This document shows positions 1 through 20,860 of a stretch of 64,000 nucleotides of DNA, piece by piece. A program made the translations under genes and the position numbers. Under the pieces are notes generated by a model, which worked only from the letters and a program-made list of their open reading frames with translations, did not search any database and had not been told where the DNA came from. How positions within the stretch are numbered: position 1 is the first letter of the stretch; each line of letters starts with the position of its first letter. The DNA comes from Eledone cirrhosa (lineage: Eukaryota): NCBI GenBank assembly GCA_964016885.1, contig OZ024740.1, forward strand, positions 249,364,001 through 249,428,000, given 5' to 3'.

Positions 1-2076
1 TTGCGTCACTTCTTAGACCTAATCAATTTCTATAGGCGTTTCGTTCCTCATTGTGCTAATTTGTTATCTTCCCTTACTGACATATTGAAAAATCGTCGTA
101 TGAAGAATGAGGATATTTCCTTGACACAAGGACAGCTTCAAGACTTCCAGACTGCCAAGACAGCACTTGCTAGTTCATCTTTGCTAGCCCACCCGGTACC
201 AGAGGCCAAGCTTTCGCTTTGTGTTGATGCATCTGATACCGCTGTGGGAGCAATTTTACAGCAGTTCAACGCTGGAAACCAACAACCTTTGGCATTTTTC
301 GCAAGGAAGCTGAAACCAGCAGAAACGCGTTACAGCACTTTTGGGCGGTAATTATTAGCCATATATCTGTCGGTGAAACATTTATCTCATATTCTTGAGG
401 GGAGAAATTTTACAGTTTTAACCGACCACAAACCTCTGACCTTCGCTTTGAGGGCTAAAGCCGACAGATATTCGCCCAGAGAGACAAGGCACCTGGATTA
501 CGTTTCGCAATTTACAAATGATATCCAGCACATTGCTGGCTCGCATAACATAGCTGCAGACACATTGTCACGTTTGCCAATCAGCTCCATCTCGTCATCC
601 CAGGAGATCGACTTAGGTCGTTTAGCTGCAGACCAACCTGCACTCCAATCGTTGGATACTCTTTCTGCCGAATTTGCGACTTGCATCTTCAAATATCTGC
701 CCTTGTCGACTACCGACAGGCAGATTCTATGTGATGTATCTACGGATTCACCACGACCACTTGTTCCTGAGACTCACCGTCGAATTGTGTTCCTTGCTTT
801 GCACAACATTTCTCACCCAGGAATTTCTGCCACAATAAAGCTTATAACGGCTAGATTTTCTGGCCCAATATGAGGCGAGAAATTACTGTCTGGTGCCGTT
901 CCTGCACACAGTGTCAGAGATCTAAAATCCACAGACACACCCGGACTCAGCTTGGTACTTTCAGTACTCCTGATGCTCGGTTTCAGCACATACACATTGA
1001 TATCGTTGGACCTTGGCCATTCAGCAGTGGATATTCGTACCTCTTGACCTGTATCGATCGTGTTTCGCGATGGCCTGGAGCCATCCCCTTACAAGATATA
1101 ACTGCTGAGACTGTAGCGCGTGCCCTGTATCAGGGTGGATTACCCGCTTTGGGGTACCAACTACAATCACCACAGACCGTGGTAGACAATTTGAATCTCA
1201 TCTTTTCTCTGAGCTCACAAAGATCATTGGCGCTCAACGGATTCGGGCCACAGCTTATCATCCTGCTTCAAACGGAATGGTGGAACGATTCCACCGCCAA
1301 TTAAAGGCCGCTTTCGCGCCTATCCAGACTCTCAACGTTGGAGCGGGTACCTTCCTATTGTGTTGTTAGGAATTCGGTCATCAATAAAGGAGGACCTTGG
1401 GTTCTCCCCGGCCGAATTACTGTATGGTGCTCCTCTAGCGTTGCCTGGGAAAATGCTTGCCCCTGTTGATCTTGCTTTCCAGGACCCTGTTTCCTACGTA
1501 TCTCGTTTGCACTCCTATTTTCAAGACTTACCGCCCATGAATACTAGGAAACAAACTATTAAAGCTGCAGTCCCGAGGGATATTGCCTCGTGGACACATG
1601 TATTCGTCAGAAACGATGCGGTTACTCCACCCCTCACACAACCATACTCTGGACCCTACCGTGTGTTAGCACGTACTGACAAACATTTCACTGTAGACAT
1701 TAAGGGGTCCAGAGAGACAATTTCGGTGGATAGACTAAAAAGGGCATACAATGACGCTCATACACCCGAGCCACAACTACCCCAATCTTTCTCTCTTGTG
1801 CATACACCCGCTCCTTCTGCCCCACCTTCACCTACATACAAGACCACGACCCGTTCCGGTCGAAGAGTTCACTGGCCCAAAAAACTCTGTTTTCATGTGA
1901 ACTGGCCACTGGAGCCTCTTTTTTGTTTTTCTCTTTATTGTATTACCATGTACCTTTCGTTACCATTTCATGCCTGTACCTTCTCGTTACCAGTTCATGC
2001 CTGTGCTGGGAGCCCGCGCTTGTGGGTTCGCTACAGTTACCTTCGGGCTTTTCGCCTAGTGTCTGGAGGAGGGTAC
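1..2076 (+). mobile_element. Ty3/Gypsy LTR retrotransposon, internal pol region (RT connection, RNase H, integrase), decayed; 5' part lies outside the window
   Basis: ORF fragments carry RNase H motifs (VDASDTAVGAILQQ, LAFFARKL..AETRYSTFGR, LTDHKPL, NIAADTLSR), an integrase HHCC (H..SHPG, CRSCTQCQ) and core (IHIDIVGP, FSPAELLYG), and GPY/F (YSGPYRV); stops and frameshifts; polypurine tract GGAGGAGGG(TAC) at 2065-2076. Confidence 0.93.
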
Positions 2077-2462
2077 TGTAGCGGCCCCTTACGGCTGTGA
2101 CTCAGCACGTATAGGAGTTGCGTCCCTTTACGACGGTCGTAACTCAGCAAGTATAGGAGTCACGTCCCTTTGCGACGGACGCGACTCCCATTGGCAGATT
2201 CATGTACTAAATGGAGTTGCGTCCCCCTGGGGACTATATAAATTAGGACAATCAAGGCATAAACCTCTCTCGCATCCTGAATTTTGAAGGGACAACAAGA
2301 ACACCTGAGACCTTGTCAAGAGATGACTCCTGTCTCACTTCCTTCACCAACAAGAAGAAGAATACCGGCAGCCTAAAGAAATACTTGAACACCTCCAAGA
2401 GAAGATTTCTGTTCTTCTCTACACACTCCAGTCTGGGAGTTGTGACCAACTGAACATCTACA
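2077..2462 (+). repeat. 3' LTR of the Gypsy element
   Basis: Starts TGTAG directly after the PPT and ends CTACA (5-bp terminal inverted repeat, TG...CA); TATA-like CTATATAAA near 2234; about three imperfect ~46-bp tandem units at ~2085-2190. Confidence 0.8.
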
Positions 2463-2611
2463 CATGTGGTAACAAATTATTTATATTAATTTATTTGACT
2501 TCTGTGAAGTAAAACCTTGTCACAACACTCACCTGCATTTATTGTCATTCTTGATAATATATATACACTGATACTAATATCCTAAAAGAGCAAGAAATGA
2601 TCCAATTATTT

Positions 2612-5202
2612 ATGGATGTGTCTTCGGACTCTACCGAAGACAACGAACAAGTTACGGACGTTGATTTCTCATCTGACAGTGCTCCGTCGGTTCCTAAGAA
2701 GCGTAATGTTATGGCATGATTTGACTTCGGAGATGATCTTCTACCCCCATGTTTCAGACACCTACGAATCAGTGAGAGGATAATAAAGCCGGAAGTATAC
2801 GAAACTATCGATGAACTGAAATCCATAACTCATATGTCTGAAAATCAGGCTAATGCCGCGATAGTTGTTGTTGGAAATAAATTGTTTGACAGAAAATGGA
2901 AGTTACATAACGAAATCGACGTGATCGATCTCGATACTTTACCTCATAAACGTAATATTTGAGAGAGCGGAAAAAGTATTGAAATGATGGCACTGGACTG
3001 CATAGTTAAGGAAATCATGTCTTTAGATACCAACAGCGTGATTACCTATCACGACGACGGGTCCAAAAAACAAGGTGTTGGATCTTTCAGTGTACAGGGC
3101 ATGACAGTTGGTGGAATGTACAGAGCGCTTCCTACGTTACCGATAGCGTCTGAATCGCGACAGAACTTGGCTTGGCTGTTTTGTCCATACTAGAAGCTGC
3201 AAGTGAGGTACCCGTCAAATTGCTCTTCGAAAAAATTGATTTTGTGATAACTGATCAGACATCACACAATTTCGAGGTTGAGGCGATCCTAGCTGAAAAA
3301 CTAGAGACTGAACACGTTCCAGACCACCTTTTCTGTAATGTTCATCCTTCCCTCATGTTCAACAGGGTTTTGACGAAGCTATTGAAAACGAAATTGGTAG
3401 AGACAACATCTTCTCGAGTTTTCTAGTGAATGCAACTACTAATGCCTCAAGTATCACAGAGCAAGCCCTCGACTGTATAACAAAATTGATATGCCATGAT
3501 TTCGACCACAAAAATTGGAACAAGGCGAATGACTTTGACTCATTTATACATCCACGCAAAAACAAGTCCGTTTCATTGAAATATGAACGGTTCAATCGGC
3601 TTACCATAACTTGTGCAGTTACGCTATATCACCTAGACGATGTAGCCGCATACGTTCAGAAATTCAAGCATGTAACTAACCAGTTGGCGTGCATAGTGCG
3701 CTGTTTTATGAATATGGACATCTTCCGGGTGTGGTGTTGTTCTGCAGTGGAGCTATCATCGGATTGCATTTGGTAGAGCCATTCTTATCACTCACGACTG
3801 CACAAGCGACGGACTATCCCAAACTGGCGATAACATTCAATAAGATCTACGACGATTTGATACATATTGATCCCAGCAAATTATTATCTACCGACCTACC
3901 AGCTTTGAGTTTCGTATCAGAAGAACGTTTCAGACAGATCCGATATGATGACGAAATGTGCGATGCGATAAATGCAGCGACCTGCGAGTTGAGAGATGAT
4001 GTACTGAAAGTCATAAAGGTGCTCTTACCGAAGTTGGATGATGGCTTCCAGAAGCAAAAGGGCGACATATTCGGATTTGGAGAAGCTGGCGATTCTACAG
4101 ACGCCTGATCAAAGATGGACACTGCCAAACTTGAAAAAGCGCCTATTCACAACCTCGATTCAGAAAGAGGTGTGGGCTTTATTAATTACGAATTGACTCG
4201 CCGAGGCGCCAAACAATTGGCCGCCGCTTCTTCATCTCAAGTAAAGATGAAGGCTAAAGACCTGATCGAAAATGAGTCGGCGTCTTTCGTCAAATACAGG
4301 AAGTTGGTTAGAAAAGGCGGCCAAATACCTGAAATTATGAAAGCATGGACTGTAAGACAGGAGGAGTTGACACGCGAAGGCCTCGCAACCAAGGAAAATG
4401 CCAATATCGCCACCGACAAGCGACGAAACAGTGACCTTGATTATCTAAAATCTGTAGGTGGTCCTTTCATTAAAAAGGAGGAGATAGATACATATATGGA
4501 GAGCGATACAGCTTCGGAAACAGATAAAATAGAAAGGTTGTATTTAGAAATTAGATATGCAAGGGACACTTCGCTATCGATACCAAAAACCAGCGACATT
4601 TTCAAACTGAAAAGGAATTATCGGAAACTAGATGTGGATACTTACGTGCGAAATCTGAGGGTTTATCTGGAGAAAGTCAGCTGCAAAACGAATGCTACTG
4701 TTCAGGACTTTAAAGATGCTTTAGATCACTTGTTGAACAATTATAATTTAAAATAAACCAATGATAATGTACCAATGAATCATGCATAATAATTTTTTCA
4801 AGCCATAGACTAGAGTTAAGCTCATTTTGTCTTCGGAAATGCGTTTAAAATATGCCATCCATGAAAAATGATATATTAGTCAATATAGTTGGTTCAATAA
4901 CAGTTTCCCATATCCGGTTCCTGGATTTCCGGCATATTGGATGGTCGTAATGCAAAAACAATACCATAAATGAGTTTATCGACCCCCAAAACCCCCCTTG
5001 TGACGAAAAATATCGAGTATAGGTGCAATAATAGCGGACTTTTCCTTCTTTTCGACCATCCTCAACTTCGTATGTACAGGAGGGTTCCGGCCCTCGGAAA
5101 ATTTTTTAGTATGATTTCAGTGAATGGTATGGGTCACTACATATTTTAAATGGGGCCCGGAAATTGAGTCTGCAGATTTGTAAATTACCCCCCCCCCCCC
5201 TA
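2612..5202 (+). mobile_element. Decayed DDE cut-and-paste transposon, hAT-like (hATm/hATx-type); transposase pseudogene ~2612-4756, putative right end CCCCTA at 5202
   Basis: Joined frames give ITYHDDGS (D1), FVITDQTSHN (D2), LFCNVH (CxxH) and HNLDSERGVG (E); the terminus reads TAGGG on the minus strand, as in hATm-type ends. Subfamily assignment is inference. Confidence 0.6.
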
Positions 5203-5363
5203 TTTATATAGTTTAGTGATTGTAACGTCCAGTTACAGTAGGTTCACCAAAGTGAGCACTTGATGTGTAGTTTTCAATCGTGAAACATGCATCACCTCAA
5301 TAAATGGAATGAAGATCTAACACCTTGTCCTTTTTATTATTATTATTATTATTATTATTAATT

Positions 5364-5547
5364 GGTCGATTTTCAGTATCGGTAGAGGGTCGGACGCCAT
5401 GCTTTGATACATAGAGTTACGGCCCTTGCCATTCTGAGTTCAAATCCCGCCGAAGTTAACTTTGCCCTTCATCCTTACGGGGTCGATAAAATAAAGTACC
5501 AGTAATGTACTGGGTAATTGCTGGCCTTGTGCCAAAAGTAGAAACAA
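5364..5547 (+). mobile_element. SINE family 1 copy (tRNA-like head, ATT tail)
   Basis: B-box-like GAGTTCAAATCCC, body GGGGTCGATAAAATAAAGTACCAG, tail GCTGGCCTTGTGCC..GAAACAATTATT; homologous copies at 17768, 47007 and 61028-61460. Confidence 0.85.
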
Positions 5548-5560
5548 TTATTATTATTAT

Positions 5561-8070
5561 CGGGCACATGATACTTGATCCCGGGCAGATGTGTGTGACT
5601 TTTCAGCAGCACTTTGCTTAGCTATTCGGGAGCAATGGCGGGCTGCATCGCTGAATGGACTTCAGTGCCTACCTCGACGGACTGCCACGGCTCTCGGCCA
5701 CTGAGGCGGAGTGTTGCGAAAGGCCGATAACAGCTGCTGAAGTACGGGAAGCAATGACTAGCTGCACAGTGGGTAAATCGCCTGGTTTGGATGGTCTGCC
5801 CTACGAATTTTACATACATATGCCAGACTTGTTCGAAGACCTCTTGGCAGACGTCTACTGCAACTGGCAGCAGGACGGGAAAATTCTCAGCTCTGTGAGC
5901 CGAGGAGCGGTGGCGCTGCTGAGAAAGGATCCGAACAAGGGGGATAACATAGAAAATTTCAGGCCCATAACTCTGCTAAACACAGACTTCAAGATTTTGG
6001 CTAAGGTGCTAGCAAAGAGGTTGGCACTTGTCGTTGGTGGTTTGGTGGGAGAGGCGCAAACATGCGCCATTCCAGACAGATCCATCCATGACAATCTCCA
6101 CCTCATGCGATACATCGTAGAGAGGGTAGCTAGGGAACCTGGCATGGGTGGGTCTTTGATCAATTTAGATCAGTCAAAAGCTTTCGATAGGGTCGACCGT
6201 CATTATCTGGCAGCAGTCCTAAGAGCAGCTGGCTTTGGGCCCGTCTTCAGGGACTGGATTGCTGCCATGCACAGCGACATCTGCTCTGTGGTGAGAGTGA
6301 ACGGTCACCTTTCGGAACCGTTCAACATCATGCGCTCGATCTGCCAGGGATGTCCTCTCTCGTCCTTGTACGTATTGACTCTCGAGCCATTACTGCACAA
6401 ACTGGAGACGTTGAGGGGGATCCCACGTGAACTAGGATGCGGAAGAACAGTGTCAGCTTATGCAGATGACATCACCGTAGTGGTGTCGAACACCAAACAC
6501 ATCGAGGCGATCGGCACCACACTAAGAGAATACGAGGTAGTGACAGGAGCAATGATCAACCAGGAAAAATCAGTAGGCCTGCAACTCGGCATCTGGAGAG
6601 GCAGGTCCATGCCGTCCAACAGCATTGCCAGGCGCTGGACGGACGGACCAGTTAAATTGCTAGGGGTCTGGTTCGGTCTGGACCTCCAGACGAACAAAAA
6701 CTGGGAGGAGGTCACGAGTAAGGTGTTTTCTCTCACCCAGAAATGGGCCGAGAGGAAGCTATCCCTGAAAGGTCGAGTGGAGGTGATGAATGCATACATC
6801 GCGTCCGTCATCTACTACCGTCTGACCGTCGTGCCTTGTCCTAAGCCTCGCCTGACTGGACTGGAGCGGAGTGTTTGCTCTTTGCTTTTTGTGGAAGGGA
6901 TGTGCTTCAATGGTCAGGCGGTCCATCTGCTGTCATCATCCGCTACGCGGAGGGCTGGGCATGCCGTGGTTGATGATACGCAGACATGCGATCAGGCTAC
7001 GGCATCTCCACCTCTTCCTCGACGGTGATCAGGTGTGGTCGCCCTTTGCTAGACACATTTTCCCCAGCTTGTCTCCTCGGTGGAGCTACAATCCTGGGTC
7101 AAGCGAAGACCGAGAGGAAACGTTTGGAGACTAGAATGTCTTCAGGCGCTTATAGCCCTCGACCAGTCGAGCAATACAATTGCTGGAAACTCCACCTTCG
7201 CTTTCTATAGAGGATTAGTGGAAGGAAAGAGCAACAACGTCCTTGGGGAGACTGTAGGCATCGACGAAAACCAACTAGCCAATCTCTTCAGGAGAACTTT
7301 CGGGCCAGGGCCCATGGATAACTTCCAGAAATCCCTAACCTGGCAGTGCTACCGAGGAGCCTTGCCAGTTAGGGATAAATTCTACAGGCATGGAAGTGCC
7401 ATTAGCCGACTCTGTCCGAGATGCGCACAGGGCGATGAAACCGTCCTGTACGCACTCGTCCAGTGTCCGAACATTGCTGATTTGTGGGTTTATGCTGAAC
7501 ACCTGCTTTCATGTGTAGAACGCTGAGTCCATCGTGAAGATTACCCCGCCGCCTTCCTTTAGCCGAGAATGACAGGCAGTATTTATCTGCCTGGGGGCCA
7601 TGGTAAAAGAGATTGTATGGTGAACATGTCTGAAAGGGTTGAAGACCGGTACTTTCCTCTTCGGTGACGCCCTCATTAACTTTTTCAGGTTTCACCTGAA
7701 GAGGAAAATCAGGGTGGAAAGGGAAGTGCTGACTTCCAGCCAGTTTGTTGAAAGGTGGGTGAGAGAGGCAAGAATGGCCCTGTGAATGGGTCTACCCTGA
7801 GCATGTGCCTGTGGCACTGAAGGAGGAAAACTGGAAGAGGGCATTTGCCCTAGCGGTCAGGGAAACCGTGGCTTTTCTTGTGGGCTTTCTCCATGAGCAA
7901 CACTCGGAGATCCCCCCCCCCCCCCCCCCCCCCCTATTGGGAATTTTTCATTGTTTCCTTTTGTCACACTCTGTTTTTGTTTTTTTTACACACAGAAATG
8001 CCCATTTGTATTGTCCTGTGTTGTCCTTAATGTTATACTTTGTGTCAACCCTTGTGGTCAATAAAGAAAG

Positions 8071-8071
<1 letters not shown>
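5561..8071 (+). mobile_element. Tx1/L1-clade non-LTR retrotransposon copy A, 5'-truncated (RT plus C-terminal zinc knuckle)
   Basis: KSPGLDGLPYEFY, FRPITLLNTDFKILAKVLAKRL, DQSKAFDRV, QGCPLS, AYADD, LSLKGR, CPRC; 3' UTR with AATAAA then (ATT)n. Confidence 0.9.
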
Positions 8072-8118
<47 letters not shown>

Positions 8119-9924
8119 AGTTGCATTTATCTTGCTTTATGTTCATACGAGTTATCACCAAGTCACAACCAGTGACCTCAAGAGACAACAAGGTCTGCCA
8201 TGTTCAAGAAAGAACATACATACTCATACATGCATCTTTAGGTGTTTAGACTTGTGATGTACTTATATTGACAGAATCTTCCTTAGTATATGGGCAGTTC
8301 CCATTAGTACTATCTTTCGTATTTCTCCTATATGCGGGTTTGCGATAAGTAATCATTAGACCCCTTAGGTATCATTCCTAGAGCGCCTACAACCACTGGT
8401 ATTGTTTTAGTTCTCAATTTCCACATTTTTCCAATTTCTATCTCCAGGTCCTTATACTTGCTCAATTTTTCAAATGTTTTTATAGATACATTCTTGTCTA
8501 TTGGAACAGACATATCAATTGGCAGGCATACCCTCTTTTTAAAGTCCTTCAGTATTATATCAGGTCTATTTGCATCTATTTTTCGGTCTGTTTGGATGCT
8601 AAAGTTCCACAAGATTGAGATGTGATCTTTTTCAAGTATGGGAGGTGGTTGATGCTCCCACCAATTCTTTTGATGGGGCAGGTCAAAATGCTTACACATT
8701 ATCCAATGTATGTATTGTGCAGCTCTGTCATGCCTGTTTAGGTATTCGGTTGGAGCTATAGGACTGCACATTGAAATTATATGATCAATGATCTCTGGTT
8801 GTTTTTTACATACACGGCATAATGGGCTGCATCCATTTTTTATTATGTTGGCTTGGTAATTTTTTGTTGGCAGACACTGATCTTGTGCGGATATAATCAG
8901 TCCTTCAGTCTCCGATTTCAGTCCAAAGGATGCGAACCACTGATGGGTTAAAGTTTTGTCAACATCAGGATTGTTAGCTTTTTCTGGGTATTTTCCATAC
9001 AGAGGCTTTTCTTGCCATTTCTTAGCCAGTTTCTGTAGCAGTTCTTTCTTTGCAGTTACTTTTACCTGCTTTGCTTTTTCTGTGTTTTCCATTTCAGCAG
9101 CAAATGGGACTTCTGAAATGTGTAGTCCATTACTGTATCTTTGTGCATCTTTTGTAATGGAGTATGATCTTTTGATGCTTTCGTGTTTCAAAACGAGTTT
9201 GATCATCCAATCATGTGATTCCCTTAGATATGTAGATAATCCAATTGTTGCAGTTTTCAGATGCAATATCTAACTGGATTAACCCACGTCCTCCTTCTTT
9301 CCTAGGGAGATATATTCTATCTATATCTGTCTTAGGGTGATGCATTCTGTGCATGGTTAAGAATTTTCGAATTTTTGTATCGAGCCTACGGATCTCTGTG
9401 CTTGACCAGTTGATGACATTGTAACTGTAGGTTACTACTGGTATGGCATCGATCCTATTCCTTGCATTCAATTCCATTCTTAAGATTGCTCTTACTCTGC
9501 GGTAACATTCCTTCCTTATCCTTTCCCTCATTGTCGACTGCTTGATTCCGTCTCCTTCACAAACACCTAGATATTTGTAAGTTTCCGCTTGATCAAGTTC
9601 TCTTATCACATTCCCCCGATCAAGATTAATGTCTGAACTTTTCATCAGCTTTCCTCTGGTGAACGTTGCTTTGGCGCATTTGTCTAGTCCAAACTCCATT
9701 TTAATGTCATCACTGAACTGCTCCACAGTGGATAATAGCCCTTGCAATTGTTCATCATTTTTTGCAAATAGTTTCAGGTCATCCATGTAGAACAAGTGAT
9801 TAATGGTTTGTCATAGACTTTATATCCATATTTTGTTTCATTGAGCATTTTACTTCATGGTATAAGCGCGATGCAGAATAAAAGCGGTGATAAAGAGTCA
9901 CCCTGAAAAATTCCACAATTAATA

Positions 9925-9928
<4 letters not shown>
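8119..9928 (-). mobile_element. R4/Dong-clade non-LTR retrotransposon copy A, 5'-truncated (RT, CCHC, restriction-like endonuclease)
   Basis: GIFQGD, FYMDDLKLFA, RKEGGRGL, AQDQ, CRVC..HIISMC, RHD, RPDIIL..ID..VP, K..KYKDL, PVVVGALG; flanked by (TAA)n. Confidence 0.9.
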
Positions 9929-9962
<34 letters not shown>

Positions 9963-9968
9963 GTTATT

Positions 9969-12900
9969 ACTCTTTGAGTCTCAGTCATTGATGTTAGTTA
10001 ACTGGAAAGTTTGTTGAGATGAATATCAAGCCACTACCTGCAGCCTCAGATATTCAGGACGTATCGGAGGGTTCTTGCTGTTCCCAGCAAGCATGCCTTT
10101 TGAAGCATTCCAAAAAGCGTGAAGGGGCCAATTTTCTTTAACCATCCCTGGAAACTTTTTGAGATAGTCCCTAGTGCGCCTATGACAATCGGGATCACTT
10201 TGACTTCATGGCAGTTCCAAATCCTTTTTACCTCCCACTTTAAATCCTGGTATCGGTTAATTTTCTCCCTCTCCTTCTCTTGCACTCTCATGTCGAATGG
10301 GCAGGCCACATCCATAATCAGGCACGATCTTTTTTCTTTGTCCAAAACCACCAGGTCAGGTCTATTGTGGTCCAGTTTCTTGTCCGTCTGTATCCTAAAA
10401 TCCCACAGCACCTTCACCTGATCGTTTTCTATCACCGACTCTGGCTTATGCTCATACCACTTCTCAGAATGTGGTAAATTGTTTACTTTGCACAGGTGCC
10501 AGTGGATCACCCTGCCCATCACATCATGTCTCCAGCCCTTATAGTGGGTCTCAGCTAGGTGTTTACACTCGGATACAATGTGAGCCACAGTCTCCTCTCT
10601 CTCTCCACAGATCCTGCACAGTGGGCTAGCCTCCTCCTTGTAGATATGGTGTTTCAACCACTTCGTTTTGAGGGCATGCTCTTGCGCAGCCATTAGCATT
10701 CCTTCTGTAGCCTTTTTAAGGTCTTCTCTTTTCAACCAGTTCCATGTCTGTGGATCTCTGAATTCAGTTTTCTCAAAGAAGGTACTATGAAGGGATTTTT
10801 CCTGAAGGCTGCTCTTTCTCCTTGTTGTTATTTCCTCCTTGGACATCCCCTGGTCTATTGTCCTCTCCTTCAGTACAGTTCTGAGCATTGGCTCCTTACT
10901 ATCAGTCATGTATTTGTGTAGGTTGTTTTTCTCCATCTGAACACATTCCTCTATGCTGATAAAACCTCTTCCACCTTCAGATCTCCTTAAGTAGAGTCTA
11001 TCGACATCACTCCTTTTGTGGAACATGTTGTAGATAGTCAATAGCTTCCTAGTCTTCCTATCCATTTCTTTTTGTTCAGCAACATTCCATCTCAGAATTC
11101 CTGCACTGTACCTAATAACAGACACAGCTCGGGAATTTACTGCACTTATGGCATTCCTACTGTTCAGATGTGACTTTAATATGCTCCTTACTCTCCGAAT
11201 GTATTCAGTTTTTATCAATTCCTTCATTTTTTTGTTCTTGATGTCATCAGCCTCCAGAACACCCAAATACTTGTATCCCTCCTCAGTGTCAATTTCCTTT
11301 ATCATCTCACCTGTTGGTACCTGGATTCCGTTACTTCTGCTCAATTTACTCCTCTTCATCACAAGGACTCCACACTTACTAATACCAAATTGCATACATA
11401 TATCATTGCTGAAATTACGGACAGTGTCAACGAGCACATCCAACTCCTTCTCACTCTTCCCGAAGAGCTTAAGATCGTCCATGAAGAGGGGGTGATTGAT
11501 GGTAAGCTCTCCCTTTCCCAACTTGTATCCTGCTTTCACTTTTCGCAGTATAATGGTCAGAGGCATCAGGGCAAGGACAAACAACAGAGGGGATAGACTA
11601 TCTCCCTGGAAGATACCTCTCTTGATCTTCACGCCTCCCAATGTTAACTCTGTTTCCCAGGACTTCATACTTTTGCCCAACAACTGTCTGATGTTATCTG
11701 CCACTCTGAAGATCTCTAGGCTTTTGGTGATCCAAGAATGAGGCACCATGTCAAATGCCTTTTTGTAGTCTATCCATCCCATGGCAAGACCAGTGTGTCT
11801 CCTCTTGCAATTCCTCATTACCATCTTATCAATAAGTAACTGGTCCTTTGTACCACGGGACTTCTTTCGGCATCCTTTCTGTTCGTCCGGTAACAAGTTG
11901 TTTGTGTGGAGGTGATGGTAGATTTCCTCAGACATAATGCTTGTCAACAGTTTCCACATTACGGACAGACATGTGATAGGTCTATAGTTGGTAACATCAT
12001 TACCCTTGATTCGGTCTTTATCAGAACTGTGGTACCTTTTGTCAACCACTCTGGTACCTCACCTGACATCAAGCAGTCATTAAACATGGTTGTCAGTTTT
12101 GGGTGGAGGGATGTTATATTTTTAATCCAATACCCCTGCACACCATCTGGGCCTGGTGATTTCCAGTTGGTTAGTTTTTTGGCCTGCTCCTTAAGAGTTT
12201 CAACTGTGATACTAAAATCAGTTTGTTGGTGTGCCTGTTCACTAATCTCCTTCTGTACTGTCTCAATCCACACTGCCTGGTCATTATGTTTAACATCCTG
12301 CTCCCATATTCCTCTCCAGAATGTTTTCGTTTGTTCCGCCTCAGGGATCAAGTCGTTGCCTCTTTCTTTCCCTTCAAGCTGTCCAAACAGCATCTTCTGG
12401 TTGTTGTCAAACATGCGGTTCTGTCTATACTGACTGACTCTGCTCTCATATCGCCTAATTTTTGCACTCTTTGCTACAATGCGTTGCTTCAGTTCCTCTA
12501 TGATAATATTTAGCTTTTTCCTCCTAGTTTTGTACTTTATTTCCAGTCTATATTTAGTGTCTATGTTTTTTAGTGTCCCATTCAGTAGGGACTCAAGCTT
12601 TCCAATGTCATTTCTCATTTCCCTGATTTGACCACTCAGTCGTTTCTTCCACCAAGGCTCTGATCTTTCTTGTCTGTTGTTTCCTCTCGCTTTTATACCA
12701 AGTAATTTCCTCACCGTATTTGCTGTTGCTTTGAGGATATTGTTGCACTGGTGAAGGCTCCTCGCCTCAAGGTATGGGATGACTTTGTTTACCTTAGCTG
12801 TTGTTTCTTTTAACTTTTTCCTGTCTACAAATCTTAGGTTCATAGGTTTCCCAATATCATTGTTCAATTCATCTACCACTAAGTTTAGGATATCAACCAA

Positions 12901-13795
12901 ATCTTGTCCTAGCCCGTCAGCATTCATCTCCTCAATGGCCGTATCTCTGTTCCAGGTATTATTTATTTCAGCATTCAGATCATTGTCTGCTTCGGATGCT
13001 TCCTCCGTTCTCTCACCTCTCCACCTTCATCTCCCACTGGCTCGTTTGCCTGGCATACTCCACTCTCCATTTCCAAGCTAATCTCTCTGTTCAGTTCCTC
13101 CAGTTCCAGCTCGCTTATCCACCCATTAGTTCTTATTACCTGAGCCTGCCCGGCCAATTTTTGTTCATCTAATTTAAATAGACCCATCTCGTTCCAGATG
13201 CTATGCATCCGTTTCCTATAGCCTTTCTCCTTGGGGTTACTCTTCAGGTAACATTGCATAACAGTTCTATTCAATTCTTTCGTCCAGTTGGTTCTGGTCC
13301 CTTCCTTCTTCTTCTTTCTCCGACACCAGCAGCATTTGGTTGACAGCCAGGTCCCTGCTGCTGAGCCAGGGAGCACCTGCTGGGTGAGAGTCTGTCACAT
13401 GACATTCCAGTCTCCACTTCACCGTTATTCGAACTGTTTAGGTTCGACATTTAAACACTCTTATTGAGGATTGGTGAATGTATGGTTACATAACCACCGG
13501 TGATTTCGTCACTTCCGGTGATTTTTGTGTAGCACTATCACGCTGTAGATGAACATAAATAAACAAACAAACGAACAGGCAGAAAAAAAAAAGAAACAAA
13601 AAAAAATAAGCATAAGTTTCATTGTAATGCAATGTTTGAATGTCTGACTTAGATTTTCCCCTCCCTTCTCTGTCCGTCTGTTTGTTTTTCTTTTCTTTTC
13701 CTTTCATTTTTCTTTTCTTTACGTTTTTTGTTGTTGCTGTGCTGCTTTGATTTTGATTTTTGGTTTTTTGATTTTGATTTTGACCGGGTCATCAG
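9969..13795 (-). mobile_element. R4/Dong-clade non-LTR retrotransposon copy B, near full length with frameshifts
   Basis: N-terminal WTKELN..MQCY..GYRKRM..W domain, [53 protein letters not shown] endonuclease; ORFs 12975-13376, 11959-12927 and 10046-12049. The 5' boundary is approximate. Confidence 0.92.
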
Positions 13796-13816
13796 ATTAT
13801 TATTATTATTATTATT

Positions 13817-16800
13817 GGTGGTCTTGGATGTCAGCACTAGCGAAGGTGGTGCCTTTAGACTGCTGGCCGTCTACGCCCCTACAGGGGCCGGACGACCTGA
13901 CTTCTTTAGGCGCTTGGAGACCTTTCTGGGTACGTCTCGCCCTTTACTGTTAGTGGGGGACTGGAATGGCATCTTAGACGCACGCTGGGATTGTGTGGGA
14001 GTAGCCGATAGGAACGGGGGGTGCAAAAGCCTCAAGCACCTACTCAGCCAGTTCCAACTGTCTGACAGGTATCGACTAGATTTCCCCAATGTGCCAGTAT
14101 GGACATGGACCAACCGAATGGGGTCATCTAGATCGTATATAGACAGGATCTTCATTAGGAAAATAGATAGAAATAGTGTGGGCTGTCCACTTTTTAAAAC
14201 GGTCGCCTATTCATATCACAAATTTGTGATCTGTACGGTCGACCTAAATAAAACGCGTAGGTTAGGACCAGGTTACTGGAAGCTGAACATGTCATTTCCG
14301 GCACGTAAGGCTTACAGGGACCGAGTCAACAAGTTAGTTAAGCAAAAGTTGACAGGGGGGATCATCAACAACAGATGGTGGGGGGCTCTCAAAAGAGAGA
14401 TTAGAGTAACTTCGATAGAGTTCAGCAAAGAACTAGCGTTAGAGAAAAATAGAAAGGAGGGGGAGGTGGTAGATAAGTTAGACGAGGCTATTTGTAGTGG
14501 CATCGCAACTGACGTGCTAGCGGCGAGAATGGCATTAGACCATTTCTTCAATGCCAAACACGAAGGTTGCATTGTCAGAGCTAAGGCGCGTGCGCTGAGA
14601 AACGAGGGAACTAAAGCTGTTCGATGGGCCCGCGTGGCGGAGGCGCAGCGTGGTAATAAAACCACAATTCGGTCTTTGGCGGACTGAGACGGACACGAGA
14701 TAAGCGATTCCAAGCGGATGTGTGAGGCCTTTCGCCAGCACTTTGCTCGGTTGTTCAGGGAGAGTGGCGTGTCAGAGAGAGTAGCGGATTTCAGTCCCTA
14801 CCTTGACGGCTTGCCGCGCATCTCGACGGTCGACGCTGAGTGCTGCGAAAGGCCGATTACTTCAGCCGAAATTCAGGACGCCCTTGTCGGCTGCATGAGG
14901 CGCAAGTCACCCGGTTTGGATGGCCTGCCCTACGAGCTTTACGTAAATATGCCAGACTTGTTCTCCGAACTCCTCGAAGCACTCTACTGCAACTGGCAGC
15001 AGAATGGGAGTATTCCCAGTTCTGTGAGCAGGGGAGTGGTGACGCTGATAAGTAAAGACGAGAACAAGAGGGATACATTAGACAACTTCAGGCCCATAAC
15101 TCTGCTCAACACAGAGTTTAAGATTTTGGCCAAGGTGTTAGCAAAGAGATTGGCGCTTGTCGTCGAGGATTTGGTTGGGGAGGCGCAAACTTGCGCAATC
15201 CCAGCCAGGTCCATACACGACAATCTCCACCTCATGCGATACATCATAGAGAGGGTAGGGTGTAAACCTGGCTTCGGTGGGGCACTGATCAATTTAGATC
15301 AATCGAAAGCATTCGATAGGGTCGACACTCGGTATCTGGAGTTTGTCCTCAAAGCAGCTGGCTTCGGCCGTCTTTAGAAGCTGGATCGTTGCAATGCACA
15401 GCGGCACACGCTCGGTGGTCAAGGTTAATGGCCACCTCTCGAAACCATTTCGGCTCTCCCGATCGGTCCATCAAGGGTGCCCTCTCTCTTCCCTTCTGTA
15501 CGTATTGACTCTCGAGCCTTTACTGTGGAAGCTGGAGCTGTTGCAGGGCATCCCGCTCGAACCGGGACGTGGAAAGGCGGTGTCGGCTTATGCGGACGAC
15601 ATCACCGTGATGGTGTCGAACACCTCAGAAATCGAGGTGGTCAGCACCTTATTGAAGGAATATGAAAGGTTGACAGGAGCCAAACTTAACCCGGAAAAAT
15701 CGGTGGGCTTGCAGCTCGGAACCTGGAGAGGCAAGCCCATGCCGTCCAACAGCGTCGGGCGGACCGGTAAAGTTGCTCGGGGTTTGGTTCGGACCAGACC
15801 TCCAGGTGGAAAAGAATTGGGACGAGTAGCCAGTCTCACCCAAAAATGGGCTGGGAGGAAGCTATCACTGAAAGGTCGCGCGGAGGTGGCGAATGCGTAC
15901 ATCGCGTCCGTCATCTACTACCGCCTAACCGTCGTGCCTTGCCCTCGTCCGCGCCTCGTCAAGTTGGAACGGCTCCTCTTCAAATTCTTGTGGAGGGAAC
16001 AAGTTCCGTTGGTGAGGCGGTCCATCTGCTGCCAGCACCCTCTACGCGGAGGGCTGGGCATGCCGTTGAGGCTGCGACATCTCCAGATATTCTGCCTCAA
16101 TGGTGAACAGGTGTGGTCGCTGTTTATCAGACGGGCCTTTCCGCAGCTCATTTCTTTGACTGAGCTGCAGTCCTGGGTCAAGAAGAGACCGAGACTGGGT
16201 GACTGGCACCTGGAATGTTGCCAGGCACTCACTGCTCTCTACCAAGCGGGCAATGCGATCAGTGGAACTTCCACTCTCGAGTTCTATAGAGGATTAGTGG
16301 TGGGCAAGTGCGATGACGCACTCGGAGAAGCTTTGGGCCTCGACGAAGTCGAACTGACCAGTCTGTACCGGAGGACTTTTGAGCCGGGGACGATTGAAAT
16401 TTTCCAGAAATTCCTCGCTTGGCAGTGCTACCGGGGGGCACTGCCGGTTCGGGATAAACTCTACAGGCACGGAAGTGCTGTCAGACGGACCTGCCCAAGA
16501 AACCGTTCTGCACGCACTTGTCCAATGTCCGTGCATTACTGACTTGTGGAGTTATGTCGAACAGCTACTGTCGCGTGTGGAACGAATCCGGCTATCGGCC
16601 GAGTCCATACTGAAGATCGAGCCGACACCTTCCTTAGGTCAGGAAGAGCAGGAAATTTTCCTCTGTCTGGTGGCAGTTGCGAAAGAGATTATATGGTGGA
16701 CCAGGTTGAAAGGACTAAAGACAGACACTTTTCTCTTCGGCCAATCCCTCATCAACTTCTTCAAGTTTCACCTGGAAAGGAGGGTGAGGGTGGAGAGAGA

Positions 16801-17167
16801 AGTGCTGCCCCCCAGTACAATTGCTAAAAGGTGGGTGAATGTGGCGAGAATGGCTCGTGTGAATGGGCCTACTCTGACCATGCACCTATAGGCTGGCTAA
16901 CTTGAGGAGAGGGGTGCTCTCCTGGGTGCCCTAGAAGCACAGGGTGGTTCAGGATTGGTGGGGTACCCGAATCACCCCAGGGTCGTCCACCCCCTATCGG
17001 GGAATTTATTTTGTTATATTTATGCATAGTTTATTTTATATTTTTATATTTTCATTGTTAAATTAGTCTTGCCATTGTGCACTTTTACTCGACCTTATTG
17101 TAAACCCCCACTGTCCCTGTCTTTATATTGTCCCCTACATGTCGGCCCTTGTGGCTAATAAATGAAA

Positions 17168-17169
<2 letters not shown>
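13817..17169 (+). mobile_element. Tx1/L1-clade non-LTR retrotransposon copy B (partial APE endonuclease, RT, zinc knuckle), 5'-truncated
   Basis: AVYAPT, VGDWN, WTW..SRSYIDRIF, GPGYWKLN, KSPGLDGLP, QGCPLS, AYADD; paralogous to 5561-8071; AATAAA then (ATT)n tail. Confidence 0.9.
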
Positions 17170-17201
<32 letters not shown>

Positions 17202-17202
<1 letters not shown>

Positions 17203-17391
17203 TGAGTCTCAGTCATTGATGTTAGTTAACTGGAAAGTTTGTTGAGATGAATATCAAGCCACTACCTGCAGCCTCAGATATTCAGGACGTATCGGAGGGT
17301 TCTTGCTGTTCCCAGCAAGCATGCCTTTTGAAGCGTTCCAAAAAGCGTGAAGGGGCCAATTTTCTTTAACCATCCCTGGAAACTTTTTGAG
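17202..17391 (-). mobile_element. 190-bp 3'-terminal fragment of Dong copy B family
   Basis: Matches ~9974-10163 with one mismatch seen by eye; (ATT)n on both sides. Confidence 0.92.
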
Positions 17392-17432
<41 letters not shown>

Positions 17433-17435
<3 letters not shown>

Positions 17436-18682
17436 CTGGGTTACTGCCGTTCTTATTCAGATTAGTAAACAATAAATATGAAGATATATTTATTTCTCAT
17501 AATTATTTCAAAATAGCTATATTTTCTTTTTTAAATATCAAAATTGTAATGATAATAGAATTTAGAAATGAAAATCTGTCAATTTTGAAGCACCTCAGGG
17601 TAAACAATATTCATTGTAATTTTTTGTTGGGTCCAAATGAATAAATTGTTGCTGCTTCCAGCTCGTGAGCAACCAACATAGAGTTGACCATGGGAGAAAC
17701 ATGTAGTAGAAAGATCAAGTCCAACTACCTTGAGGGATTGACCCTGAGATTTGTTAATTGAAATAATTGTTTCTATTTTAGGCACAAGGCCAGCAATTAC
17801 CCAGTACATTACTGGTAATTTCTTTTTATCGACCCCGTAAGGATCGAAGGCAAAGTTAACCCCGGCGGGATTTGAACTCAGATAATAAAGGGACGTAACT
17901 CTATGCTTCAAAGCATGGTGTCCGACTCTCTACCAATACTGCCAATCCACTGCCCTTTTGTTAATTGAAATAATAAAAGTTAGTTTGACTGGAAACTAAA
18001 ACCTCTTAAATTCAACCTCACATACACTCACACACATATACTTGTCAGTCATCACATATGTGTATGTATGTGTAGATGTATGTGTGTATTTAATTCTCTG
18101 TCTATCTGATTAAATATTTATGTGAAGATGTATGTGTATGTAACTTACTAAGGCCTAATGAATGTTATGAATGCGCAAACACACACACACTCACACACAT
18201 ACACACTCATATACAAAATGTGACACCATCGTCGTCGTCACATACACTCACACACTCACACTTGTCAGTCATCACATATGTAGATGTGTGCGTGTGTTTA
18301 ATTCTCTGTGTATCTGATTAAATATTTACATGAAGATGTATGTGTATGTAACTTACTAAGGCCTAACATATGTAAGGAACACGCAAACACATACACATAC
18401 ACACTCACAGACACATACACACTCACATACACATACACACTCATATATAAAATTTGATGTCGTTGTCGCCATGTTATAAAATGTCCATTTGCTTATAGTC
18501 TGTAGTAGATTATTTTAGATAAAATGTTATATTGTTTTAATCCAAATGAAAATAAAAATTACATGTTAATTCCGGGGTCTACTACTATTACCTTGTAAAA
18601 TTTGATTTGATTTGGTCGAGCCGTTTGAGAATGCATAAGGAAAAGACAGACAGACAGAGAGACAAAGAATTTTATATATAGA
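17433..18682 (-). mobile_element. Internally deleted Helitron retaining the C-terminal PIF1 helicase motifs
   Basis: After removing the SINE the frame reads EFKRF*FPVKLTFIISINKSQGQSLKVVGLDL..CFSHGQLYVGCSR; 5' end TCTATATATAAA at 18682; 3' end CCAGT (CTAG variant); internal ~230-bp duplication at ~18017-18470. Confidence 0.8.
17768..17956 (-). mobile_element. SINE family 1 inserted in the Helitron helicase, 18-bp TSD
   Basis: TTTGTTAATTGAAATAAT at 17750-17767 and 17957-17974. Confidence 0.9.
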
Positions 18683-19954: not shown

Positions 19955-20860
19955 TCATCATCACTGTTTAACGTCTATTTTTCTGTGCTGGCATGGGTTA
20001 GAGAGGTCGCTGACGTCAGCTGGACATGCCATACCTTGCTCAGACAGAACTGTATTTTGCCTGGGATTTTTACAGCTGGGTGCCCTTCTTAACACCAACC
20101 ACGTTTACAGTGTAGAAAAGGATCGCACCGTTATGATGAGAGACAGGCCAGTTGGATGCGCCGTACCCTGCTAACATTGGAACCATAGTTAGGGATCTGG
20201 GTAGTCTCATCATAAGGGAGGTCTGGTCAGTTGGTCGCACGATGCCTGCCCATAGTGGGGCTGGGTTTGGGCTGGGTTTTTACGGCTGCTGGATGTTCTA
20301 CCGTCAACCACTTTTACAGTGTGTAACTGGATGGTGCGGTTATGAGACAGGTTTGGCCAGATGGCTGCACCATACCTTGCTCAAAACAGAGCTATGCGTT
20401 GGCTGGGTTTTTACAACTGCTAGATGCCTTTCCTAACACCTACCAGGTTACAGCATGGAACTGAGCGGCACCGTTATGAGAAAGGTCTGCCCAGTTGGCT
20501 ACACCATGCCTTGCTTATAGTGGGGCTGTGTTACTGGGTGGTAATGACAGGTCTGGTCAAATGGCTGCGCTGTACCTTGCATATATCAGGACACTGCTCA
20601 CAACAGAACCATAATTCAGCTGCTAAATGCCTTTCCTACTGCCAATCACATTTACAGTGTGGAATTGGGTTGTCCTGTTACGAGACAGGTCTGGCTAAAT
20701 AGCCACACCATGCCTTGCTCATAGCAGGGCCATGTTTGGGCTGAAATTTTATGGCTGCTGGATGCCCTTTCTTCTGCCAACCACATTCATAGTGTGGGAC
20801 TGGGTGGCACCTTTATGAGGAGGGTCTGGCCAGTTGGCCACGCCGTACCCTGCTCAGCCT
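19955..20860 (-). repeat. Degenerate tandem array (~8 units, ~70-135 bp) built from an RTE-type 3' UTR
   Basis: Recurrent GGTCTGGCCAGTTGGCTGCACCATACCTTGCTC-like core and GCTGGATGCCCTTCC..CCAACC..TTTACAGTG; begins at a CATCATCA..TTTAACGTC RTE-style tail. Confidence 0.65.

What the first reader, a model, noticed from the sequence alone, without database searches (positions are those of the whole stretch)
5336..17431. 12-kb stack of six retro-insertions at (ATT)n, with clade-specific orientation
Seen: SINE(+), Tx1(+), Dong(-), Dong(-), Tx1(+), Dong fragment(-), each separated only by ATT tracts and none inserted inside another's body. APE-type Tx1 and the SINE run one way; RLE-type Dong always runs the other. 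Known: Dong elements target (TAA)n and some Tx1 families target microsatellites. Inferred: two unrelated endonuclease systems share one target on opposite strands, and each insertion regenerates the target, giving a self-extending array.
Basis: partly seen in the sequence, partly recalled or inferred. Interest (0 to 1): 0.7.

Follow-up and report, generated by a model that had tools for sequence, protein, structure and literature searches.

The report
Opposite-facing retrotransposons stacked in ATT repeats
In this likely octopus-type genome, two unrelated kinds of jumping gene sit in the same short ATT repeats facing opposite ways and pile into chains like this 12-kb one, likely because each enters the repeat from its own strand and leaves repeat on both sides for the next arrival.

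Summary
The stack is real: SINE(+), L1/Tx1-type LINE A(+), Dong-type A(-), Dong-type B(-), Tx1-type B(+) and a Dong-B fragment(-), joined by seven ATT tracts. It is one example of a genome-wide rule. Of 117 scorable 5' junctions at other copies, 69 abut an ATT/AAT tract, all 69 in the family's own polarity (Tx1 reads ATT, Dong reads AAT); background is about 0.2% per polarity. 78 of 80 recognised downstream neighbours keep the polarity. Divergence fits younger copies landing in tracts beside older ones.

Refinements: there are four LINE families. The left tract is the tail of a seventh repeat. The SINE targets a short ATT motif (8 of 48 copies in tracts), enters LINE bodies elsewhere, and shares a covarying 3' hairpin with the Tx1 families. 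CTT/AAG is a minor second target. Long-read support and an empty allele were not obtained.

Dong-on-TAA and microsatellite-targeting Tx1 are known, as is opposite-strand sharing (TRAS1/SART1). An ATT-targeting Tx1 sharing tracts with an RLE element was not found in eight literature searches. This scan reported the same system at other loci of this genome. Verdict: new variant of a known kind.

The parts
5274..5333 (+). End of an older, separate repeat whose terminus carries (TTA)n; probable origin of the founding tract
   Evidence: 9 of 11 other matches of this end are followed by 3 or more ATT units; often in inverted pairs
5334..5360 (.). (ATT)9 tract 1
5361..5546 (+). SINE (tRNA-like head by recalled box motifs only); 3' hairpin shared with the Tx1 families; 3.8% private substitutions
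5547..5560 (.). (ATT)4 tract 2: SINE tail and 5' flank of Tx1-A
5561..8071 (+). Tx1-type LINE family A, 5'-truncated before RT; RT and zf-RVT, frameshifted; 3.3% private substitutions
8072..8117 (.). (ATT)15 tract 3: tail-to-tail junction of Tx1-A and Dong-A
8118..9926 (-). Dong/R4-type LINE family A, truncated in RT; C-terminal CCHC and RLE motifs; 1.3% private substitutions
9927..9969 (.). Tract 4, including the TAATAAC variant that belongs to the Dong-B 3' end
   Evidence: 20 of 31 Dong-B copies carry the same 17-nt end with this variant
9970..13794 (-). Dong/R4-type LINE family B, whole ORF region in three frames, truncated in the 5' UTR; RT and RLE; 1.9% private substitutions
13796..13816 (.). 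(ATT)7 tract 5: head-to-head junction of Dong-B and Tx1-B
13817..17169 (+). Tx1-type LINE family B, truncated inside APE; APE half, RT and C-terminal region, broken by a stop and frameshifts; 1.0% private substitutions
17170..17202 (.). (ATT)11 tract 6
17203..17391 (-). 189-bp 3' fragment of Dong-B; no private substitutions, likely the youngest insertion
17392..17432 (.). (ATT)13 tract 7, right end of the array

Best explanation
Two L1/Tx1-type (APE) and two Dong/R4-type (restriction-like endonuclease) LINE families sit in the same ATT/AAT repeat in fixed, opposite polarity, likely because each primes reverse transcription from its own strand of the repeat and leaves repeat on both sides, so that chains like this one likely grow by serial insertion. 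Shown: the anatomy, genome-wide tract preference, strict polarity, stacking, and SINE target duplications that start at ATT. Inferred: Tx1 nicks the AAT-reading strand and pairs an AUU-ended RNA; Dong nicks the TTA-reading strand and pairs a UAA-ended RNA; each insertion splits the tract and adds tail units. Also inferred: the SINE borrows the Tx1 machinery through a shared 3' hairpin but accepts a single short ATT motif. Inferred order here: an older repeat's TTA tail, then SINE and Tx1-A, Dong-B, Dong-A between them, Tx1-B, and last the Dong-B fragment beside the Tx1-B tail.
For: 5' junctions at 117 of 138 examined non-self copies (21 excluded): 69 tract-flanked, all in family polarity; background 0.16% ATT and 0.23% AAT at 20,000 random positions. 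Five of six Tx1-B copies reaching the 5' start, examined, start right after (ATT)n. Neighbours within 120 bp: downstream 78 concordant, 2 discordant, 56 none of 136; upstream 71 concordant, 4 discordant, 42 none of 117. Three of those four upstream cases are inverted Tx1 pieces and one is a SINE inside a Dong body. One of 40 position-picked 10-kb loci holds a Dong/Tx1/Dong stack (L209). Dong-B tail variant shared by 20 of 31 copies. L147 has a CTT 5' flank and an ATT tail. SINE: 43 of 48 copies are followed by ATT; 31 have a duplication of 8 bp or more, 21 starting exactly at ATT. Hairpin loop CTTGT with covarying stems: SINE TGGC/GCCA, Tx1-A AACC/GGTT, Tx1-B GGCC/GGCT; a 3-bp stem at 160 of 252 end-like sites versus 49 of 487 background sites. 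Private substitutions 3.8, 3.3, 1.9, 1.3, 1.0 and 0%.
Against: 43 of 117 junctions had no tract by the strict rule, and Tx1-A reaches only 5 of 22. Eight Tx1/Dong 5'-to-5' junctions have no tract (L007, L029, L069, L086, L111, L158, L164, L176), so deletion or non-tract insertion also occurs. One Dong-A copy (L162) has a CTT tract in the wrong polarity, with a short AAT run at the junction. Copies were chosen by closeness to the window's 3' ends and are few next to 487-2629 candidates per family. Plain alignment of SINE and Tx1 ends is weak (Tx1-B 6 of 2000 shuffles but matched by 2 of 389 internal windows; Tx1-A 92 of 2000). The minimum-energy fold of the SINE end prefers another hairpin. Tx1-A and SINE ages may be inflated by subfamily mixture. 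There are no enzyme data.
Confidence: 0.8

Rival explanations
1. Polarity comes only from RNA-tail/primer pairing. The nucleases cut AT-rich DNA loosely or on both strands, and only nicks whose 3' end pairs with the element's AUU or UAA tail are productive.
For: The SINE needs only a short ATT motif (8 of 48 in tracts). CTT/AAG tracts are also used. Pairing of element RNA with the target is proposed for SART1 (PMC7265360, passages). Sequence data cannot separate this from strand-specific cutting.
Against: Endonuclease swaps move target specificity between TRAS1 and SART1 (PMC7265360, passages). A sister Tx1 family with the same 3' end sits in (TATC)n at both the 3' ends shown and the one 5' flank seen (L217), which fits a target switch but does not show which part changed.
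Confidence: 0.12
2. Passive accumulation: elements insert broadly, tracts are only their own tails, and stacks survive because insertions into repeats are harmless.
For: Tracts beside elements are often another element's tail. Passive accumulation is proposed for fly Waldo-A/B near CA repeats (PMC3812793, passage).
Against: Neutral survival gives no 69:0 polarity at 5' flanks, nor 23-78% tract-flanked junctions against about 0.4% background for both polarities together. Young copies show it most strongly.
Confidence: 0.04
3. Assembly artefact: unrelated loci were joined through overlapping ATT tracts.
For: No read or contig spanning the locus was found. Joins through a tract would also preserve its strand.
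Against: Tracts are only 12-50 bp. Truncated 5' ends abut tracts at dozens of loci on many contigs. The ages of the six copies form a sensible insertion order. The contig is 443 Mb long.
Confidence: 0.04

Closest known systems
Dong (Bombyx mori), DongAg, DongBg (snail): R4 lineage, TAA-targeted (PMC3812793 and PMC3774820, passages)
   Same: RT plus C-terminal CCHC/RLE, (TAA)n tail, and (TAA)n at the 5' flank in 41 of 58 scored copies.
   Different: Two coexisting families share tracts with an APE element facing the other way; occasional AAG target. No named Dong sequence was available for a tree.
Microsatellite-specific Tx1 families: Kibi (TC)n, Koshi (TTC)n, crocodilian (TTCC)n/(TTTC)n (PMC4494074, passages)
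   Same: L1-group APE-RT element with a microsatellite target. The minor CTT target is the Koshi repeat unit.
   Different: The main target is (ATT)n, not among the targets in the passages read. It has an ATT tail instead of poly(A), and the target is shared with an RLE element.
TRAS1Bm and SART1Bm in (TTAGG)n telomeric repeats (PMC7265360, passages)
   Same: Two families insert into one simple repeat in opposite directions.
   Different: Those are telomeric and both of APE type (R1 clade; recalled, with the APE class of R1 from PMC4640811). Here APE and RLE elements share a dispersed microsatellite that they themselves extend.
SINEU with Tx1-Mar (PMC4494074) and stringent SINE/L1 pairs with a shared 3' stem-loop in maize and sorghum (PMC3747384); passages
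   Same: A SINE likely mobilised by an L1-group element, with shared target and a covarying 3' hairpin.
   Different: SINEU has a snRNA head and poly(A) tail. Here the shared part is a hairpin of about 13 nt plus an ATT tail, and the SINE's target is looser than the LINE's.

Membership tests
Dong (R4 clade) | RT followed by CCHC finger and PD-(D/E)xK restriction-like endonuclease | tested here: met
   RT by Pfam; motifs in both families; best PDB hits are R2 proteins, with a weak RLE alignment (12 bits)
Dong (R4 clade) | Insertion in (TAA)n | tested here: met
   Dong-A 20 of 31 and Dong-B 21 of 27 5' flanks; tails in 35 of 35 and 31 of 31
Dong (R4 clade) | RT phylogeny with named R4/Dong elements | not testable with these tools
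   The 120 homologues listed carried no R4/Dong name; the Atlas gave only RVT_1 clusters. The name rests on architecture and target.
Dong (R4 clade) | HDV-like ribozyme at the 5' end (PMC3774820) | tested here: inconclusive
   No HDV-like Rfam match in 5 loci with long Dong copies; a plain fold was uninformative
Tx1 clade (L1 group) | Two ORFs; ORF2 with APE, RT and C-terminal zinc finger, closest to L1 among solved structures | tested here: met
   Full-length Tx1-B is about 5.9 kb with ORF1 bearing a CCHC knuckle; best PDB hit is L1 ORF2p, E 1.7e-46, versus R2 at 4e-18; Pfam
Tx1 clade (L1 group) | Target-sequence preference | tested here: met
   Tx1-B 23 of 37 ATT plus 2 CTT; Tx1-A 5 of 22
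Tx1 clade (L1 group) | RT phylogeny with Tx1L, Kibi, Koshi, Keno rather than other L1-group lineages | not testable with these tools
   No named Tx1 reference among 120 listed homologues or Atlas hits; 'Tx1' is a likely label, not a tested one
tRNA-derived SINE of a named superfamily (octopus OR1/CORE, MetaSINE) | tRNA-like head and the superfamily's central domain | tested here: inconclusive
   No tRNA call and no Rfam tRNA match; box A/B resemblance is recalled; no reference sequence in the passages of PMC4824008 read
SINE mobilised by the Tx1-type LINEs | Shared 3' terminal structure and insertion signature | tested here: inconclusive
   Covarying hairpin and ATT-starting duplications support it; primary similarity is weak; CR1, L2 and RTE families of this genome were not compared

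The most novel reading that the evidence does not exclude
An APE-type and an RLE-type retrotransposon lineage have converged on one trinucleotide duplex and split it by strand. With a Tx1-mobilised SINE and other TTA-tailed repeats seeding new sites, they form a self-propagating target niche that builds polarised multi-kilobase arrays across a 3-Gb cephalopod genome. Sister Tx1 families with the same 3' hairpin but other repeats (TATC, CTT) would offer a natural series for how an L1-type endonuclease changes target.
Probability: 0.5. Interest if true: 0.65.

Novelty: new variant of a known kind. Interest (0 to 1): 0.5.

Why it matters
It suggests a concrete cause for transposon hotspots in octopod genomes, where Dong-R4 and L1-Tx1 are among the recently active LINEs (PMC13282606, Table 1; that paper offers no target mechanism in the parts read). 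It shows two unrelated endonuclease classes using one target with opposite polarity, and it names a candidate partner for a very abundant SINE. Related families with different repeats make target-specificity evolution of L1-type endonucleases directly testable. Each ingredient has a precedent, so this extends known biology rather than overturning it.

Tried and rejected
Read support: the run search found holders of at most half the words of a left-flank stretch that is itself repeated. Two layings gave short contigs, skipped the tracts, and showed no piece bridging a locus-specific junction and no credible empty allele; the listed joints are SINE-to-SINE cross-matches. This is no evidence either way.

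Empty site from paralogues: the left and right flanks belong to different repeats and do not join in other copies, so the array did not split one element.

Naming by homology: protein searches and the Atlas gave no clade names; one hit is labelled Argonauta hians (60% identity), which supports an octopod host. Rfam gave only chance matches. ARAGORN found nothing. Xiong and Eickbush 1993 is not held.

The idea that the SINE is microsatellite-specific was rejected (8 of 48). The idea that the Dong fragment is an exact duplicate of the neighbouring Dong-B end was rejected (one mismatch, and no private change).
Full report
Observation. The window lies on a 443-Mb contig of a 3.0-Gb assembly. An Argonauta hians protein is the best named homologue of the Tx1-type ORF2, so the host is likely an octopod. 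Only four more ATT/AAT tracts of 4 or more units occur in the rest of the 64 kb. The plus-strand LINEs are two families, 72% identical. A full-length relative of the second is about 5.9 kb, with an ORF1 carrying a CCHC knuckle and an APE-RT ORF2 whose best solved relative is human L1 ORF2p. The minus-strand LINEs are also two families with RT and C-terminal CCHC/RLE motifs; for Dong-B the best solved relatives are R2 proteins. The four long copies have interrupted reading frames. 'Tx1' and 'Dong' rest on architecture and target, because no named reference was available for a tree.

Genome-wide test. A 3' tail has fixed polarity by construction, so the informative flank is the 5' one. I searched the genome with each family's 3' end (1779, 553, 487 and 2629 candidates, 40 scored each). 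I examined 138 non-self copies (Tx1-B 39 of 39 listed, Dong-B 31 of 39, Dong-A 35 of 39, Tx1-A 33 of 40), extending long ones. Twenty-one were dropped before counting: 2 beyond the locus, 16 limited by the reference, 2 duplicates, 1 internal duplication. Of 117 junctions, 69 had 9 bp or more of ATT/AAT repeat within 15 bp: Tx1-B 23 of 37 and Tx1-A 5 of 22 read ATT, Dong-A 20 of 31 and Dong-B 21 of 27 read AAT, none the reverse (p 3e-21). Background from 40 position-picked 10-kb loci is 0.16% and 0.23%. Five junctions had CTT/AAG tracts, four in family polarity and one (L162) not; 43 had none. Manual follow-up of dropped and negative cases found AAT at L150, L151, L156, L169, L174 and L178, CTT at L144, and no tract at L167 and L171. 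It also found eight tract-less Tx1/Dong 5'-to-5' junctions.

Stacking. Within 120 bp downstream of 136 copies, 78 had a recognised neighbour in the expected polarity, 2 in the opposite, and 56 none. Upstream of 117 copies the counts were 71, 4 and 42. Three of the four upstream exceptions are inverted Tx1 pieces and one is a SINE inside a Dong body. In both downstream exceptions the neighbour lies beyond a change of repeat to AAT. One of 40 unbiased loci held a Dong/Tx1/Dong stack (L209). The window's array is therefore a typical product of a general rule.

Regeneration of the target. The Dong-B 3' end carries a TAATAAC variant in 20 of 31 copies with the same 17-nt end, so the first tail units travel with the element. 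L147 has a CTT 5' flank but an ATT tail. Private substitutions against other copies are SINE 3.8%, Tx1-A 3.3%, Dong-B 1.9%, Dong-A 1.3%, Tx1-B 1.0%, fragment 0%. Dong-A thus sits between two older copies, and the fragment sits beside the tail of the next youngest, as serial insertion predicts; subfamily mixture may inflate the two oldest values.

The SINE. In unbiased sequence, 43 of 48 copies with an intact 3' end are followed by ATT. Thirty-one have a duplication of 8 bp or more (some low-complexity), 21 of them starting exactly at ATT, but only 8 have a tract at the 5' side. By the standard target-primed model (established knowledge), a duplication starting at ATT places the first nick on the AAT-reading strand. 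SINE, Tx1-A and Tx1-B ends share the loop CTTGT closed by different, pairing stems: 160 of 252 end-like sites have a 3-bp stem against 49 of 487 background sites. Against this reading, primary similarity is marginal, the SINE's minimum-energy fold prefers another hairpin, and other LINE clades were not compared. Tx1 is the likely, unproven, partner.

Mechanism. Best reading (0.8): each clade primes from its own strand of the repeat through endonuclease preference plus tail pairing, and leaves repeat on both sides. The main rival (0.12) is that tail pairing alone sets polarity; sequence cannot separate the two. Passive accumulation and misassembly are unlikely, though read support for this locus was not obtained.

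Literature. TAA targeting by Dong, including a snail element, and TC/TTC targeting by Kibi and Koshi are stated in PMC3812793 and PMC4494074 (passages). PMC3774820 (passages) places Dong in the R4 lineage, and PMC4640811 (passages) lists R4 as RLE-type. Opposite insertion into one repeat is known for TRAS1/SART1 (PMC7265360, passages). Dong-R4 and L1-Tx1 are recently active in Octopus vulgaris (PMC13282606, first third of the text plus passages). PMC4824008 and PMC3747384 were read as passages. Eight searches returned no report of an ATT-targeting Tx1 or of Tx1/Dong co-occupation. Kojima and Fujiwara 2004, Xiong and Eickbush 1993, Repbase, Figure 3 and the supplements of PMC4494074, and the supplement of PMC13282606 were not seen and could already list such a family.

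Earlier notes. Eight notes of this scan describe the same system elsewhere in this genome. My flank counts were made before reading them. The SINE-end similarity was tested, and the hairpin test followed a lead in one of the notes.

Verdict. Real, general, and a new variant of known site-specific retrotransposition; interest 0.5.

Noticed in passing
L217:2297-2869 and 4278-10000: Another Tx1-type family (72-81% identical to Tx1-B) with nearly the same 3' end but (TATC)n tails, stacked head to tail; suggests sister families with different microsatellite targets.
   Followed up: partly
L174, L178, L152, L167 versus L171 (Dong-A 5' UTR): Four long Dong-A copies carry a 3' fragment of the SINE of about 45 bp inserted at an ATTATT site of the 5' UTR; L171 lacks it. 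The fragment appears to have been copied along by Dong.
   Followed up: partly
L150, L151, L167, L174, L178: Dong-A and Dong-B, unalignable at the nucleotide level in their coding parts, share a similar 5' UTR start, often directly after (AAT)n. No ribozyme match.
   Followed up: partly
L009, L016, L144, L147, L189 (Tx1); L161, L168 (Dong-A): CTT/AAG tracts serve as a minor second target with the same opposite polarity.
   Followed up: partly
L013, L095, L126, L191: Inverted pieces at Tx1 5' ends, as expected from L1-type twin priming (label recalled).
   Followed up: no
window 5201-5333; L242-L255: The repeat that ends at the first tract occurs elsewhere in inverted pairs with TTA ends; Penelope-like by recalled resemblance only.
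   Followed up: partly
window 17438-18600: High-copy repeat (1168 candidates). Most other copies shown carry a further terminal stretch of about 25 bp, Helitron-like by recall, that this copy lacks; a SINE is inserted at about 17762-17950.
   Followed up: partly
window 352-2100: Broken LTR-retroelement remnant with RNase H and integrase domains; observed only.
   Followed up: no
window 2584-4947: Repeat with unannotated ORFs (no Pfam match) that is matched closely by contigs of three runs labelled as different organisms.
   Followed up: no
L063 and L064: Near-identical stacks 12 Mb apart on one contig: segmental duplication or uncollapsed haplotype.
   Followed up: no
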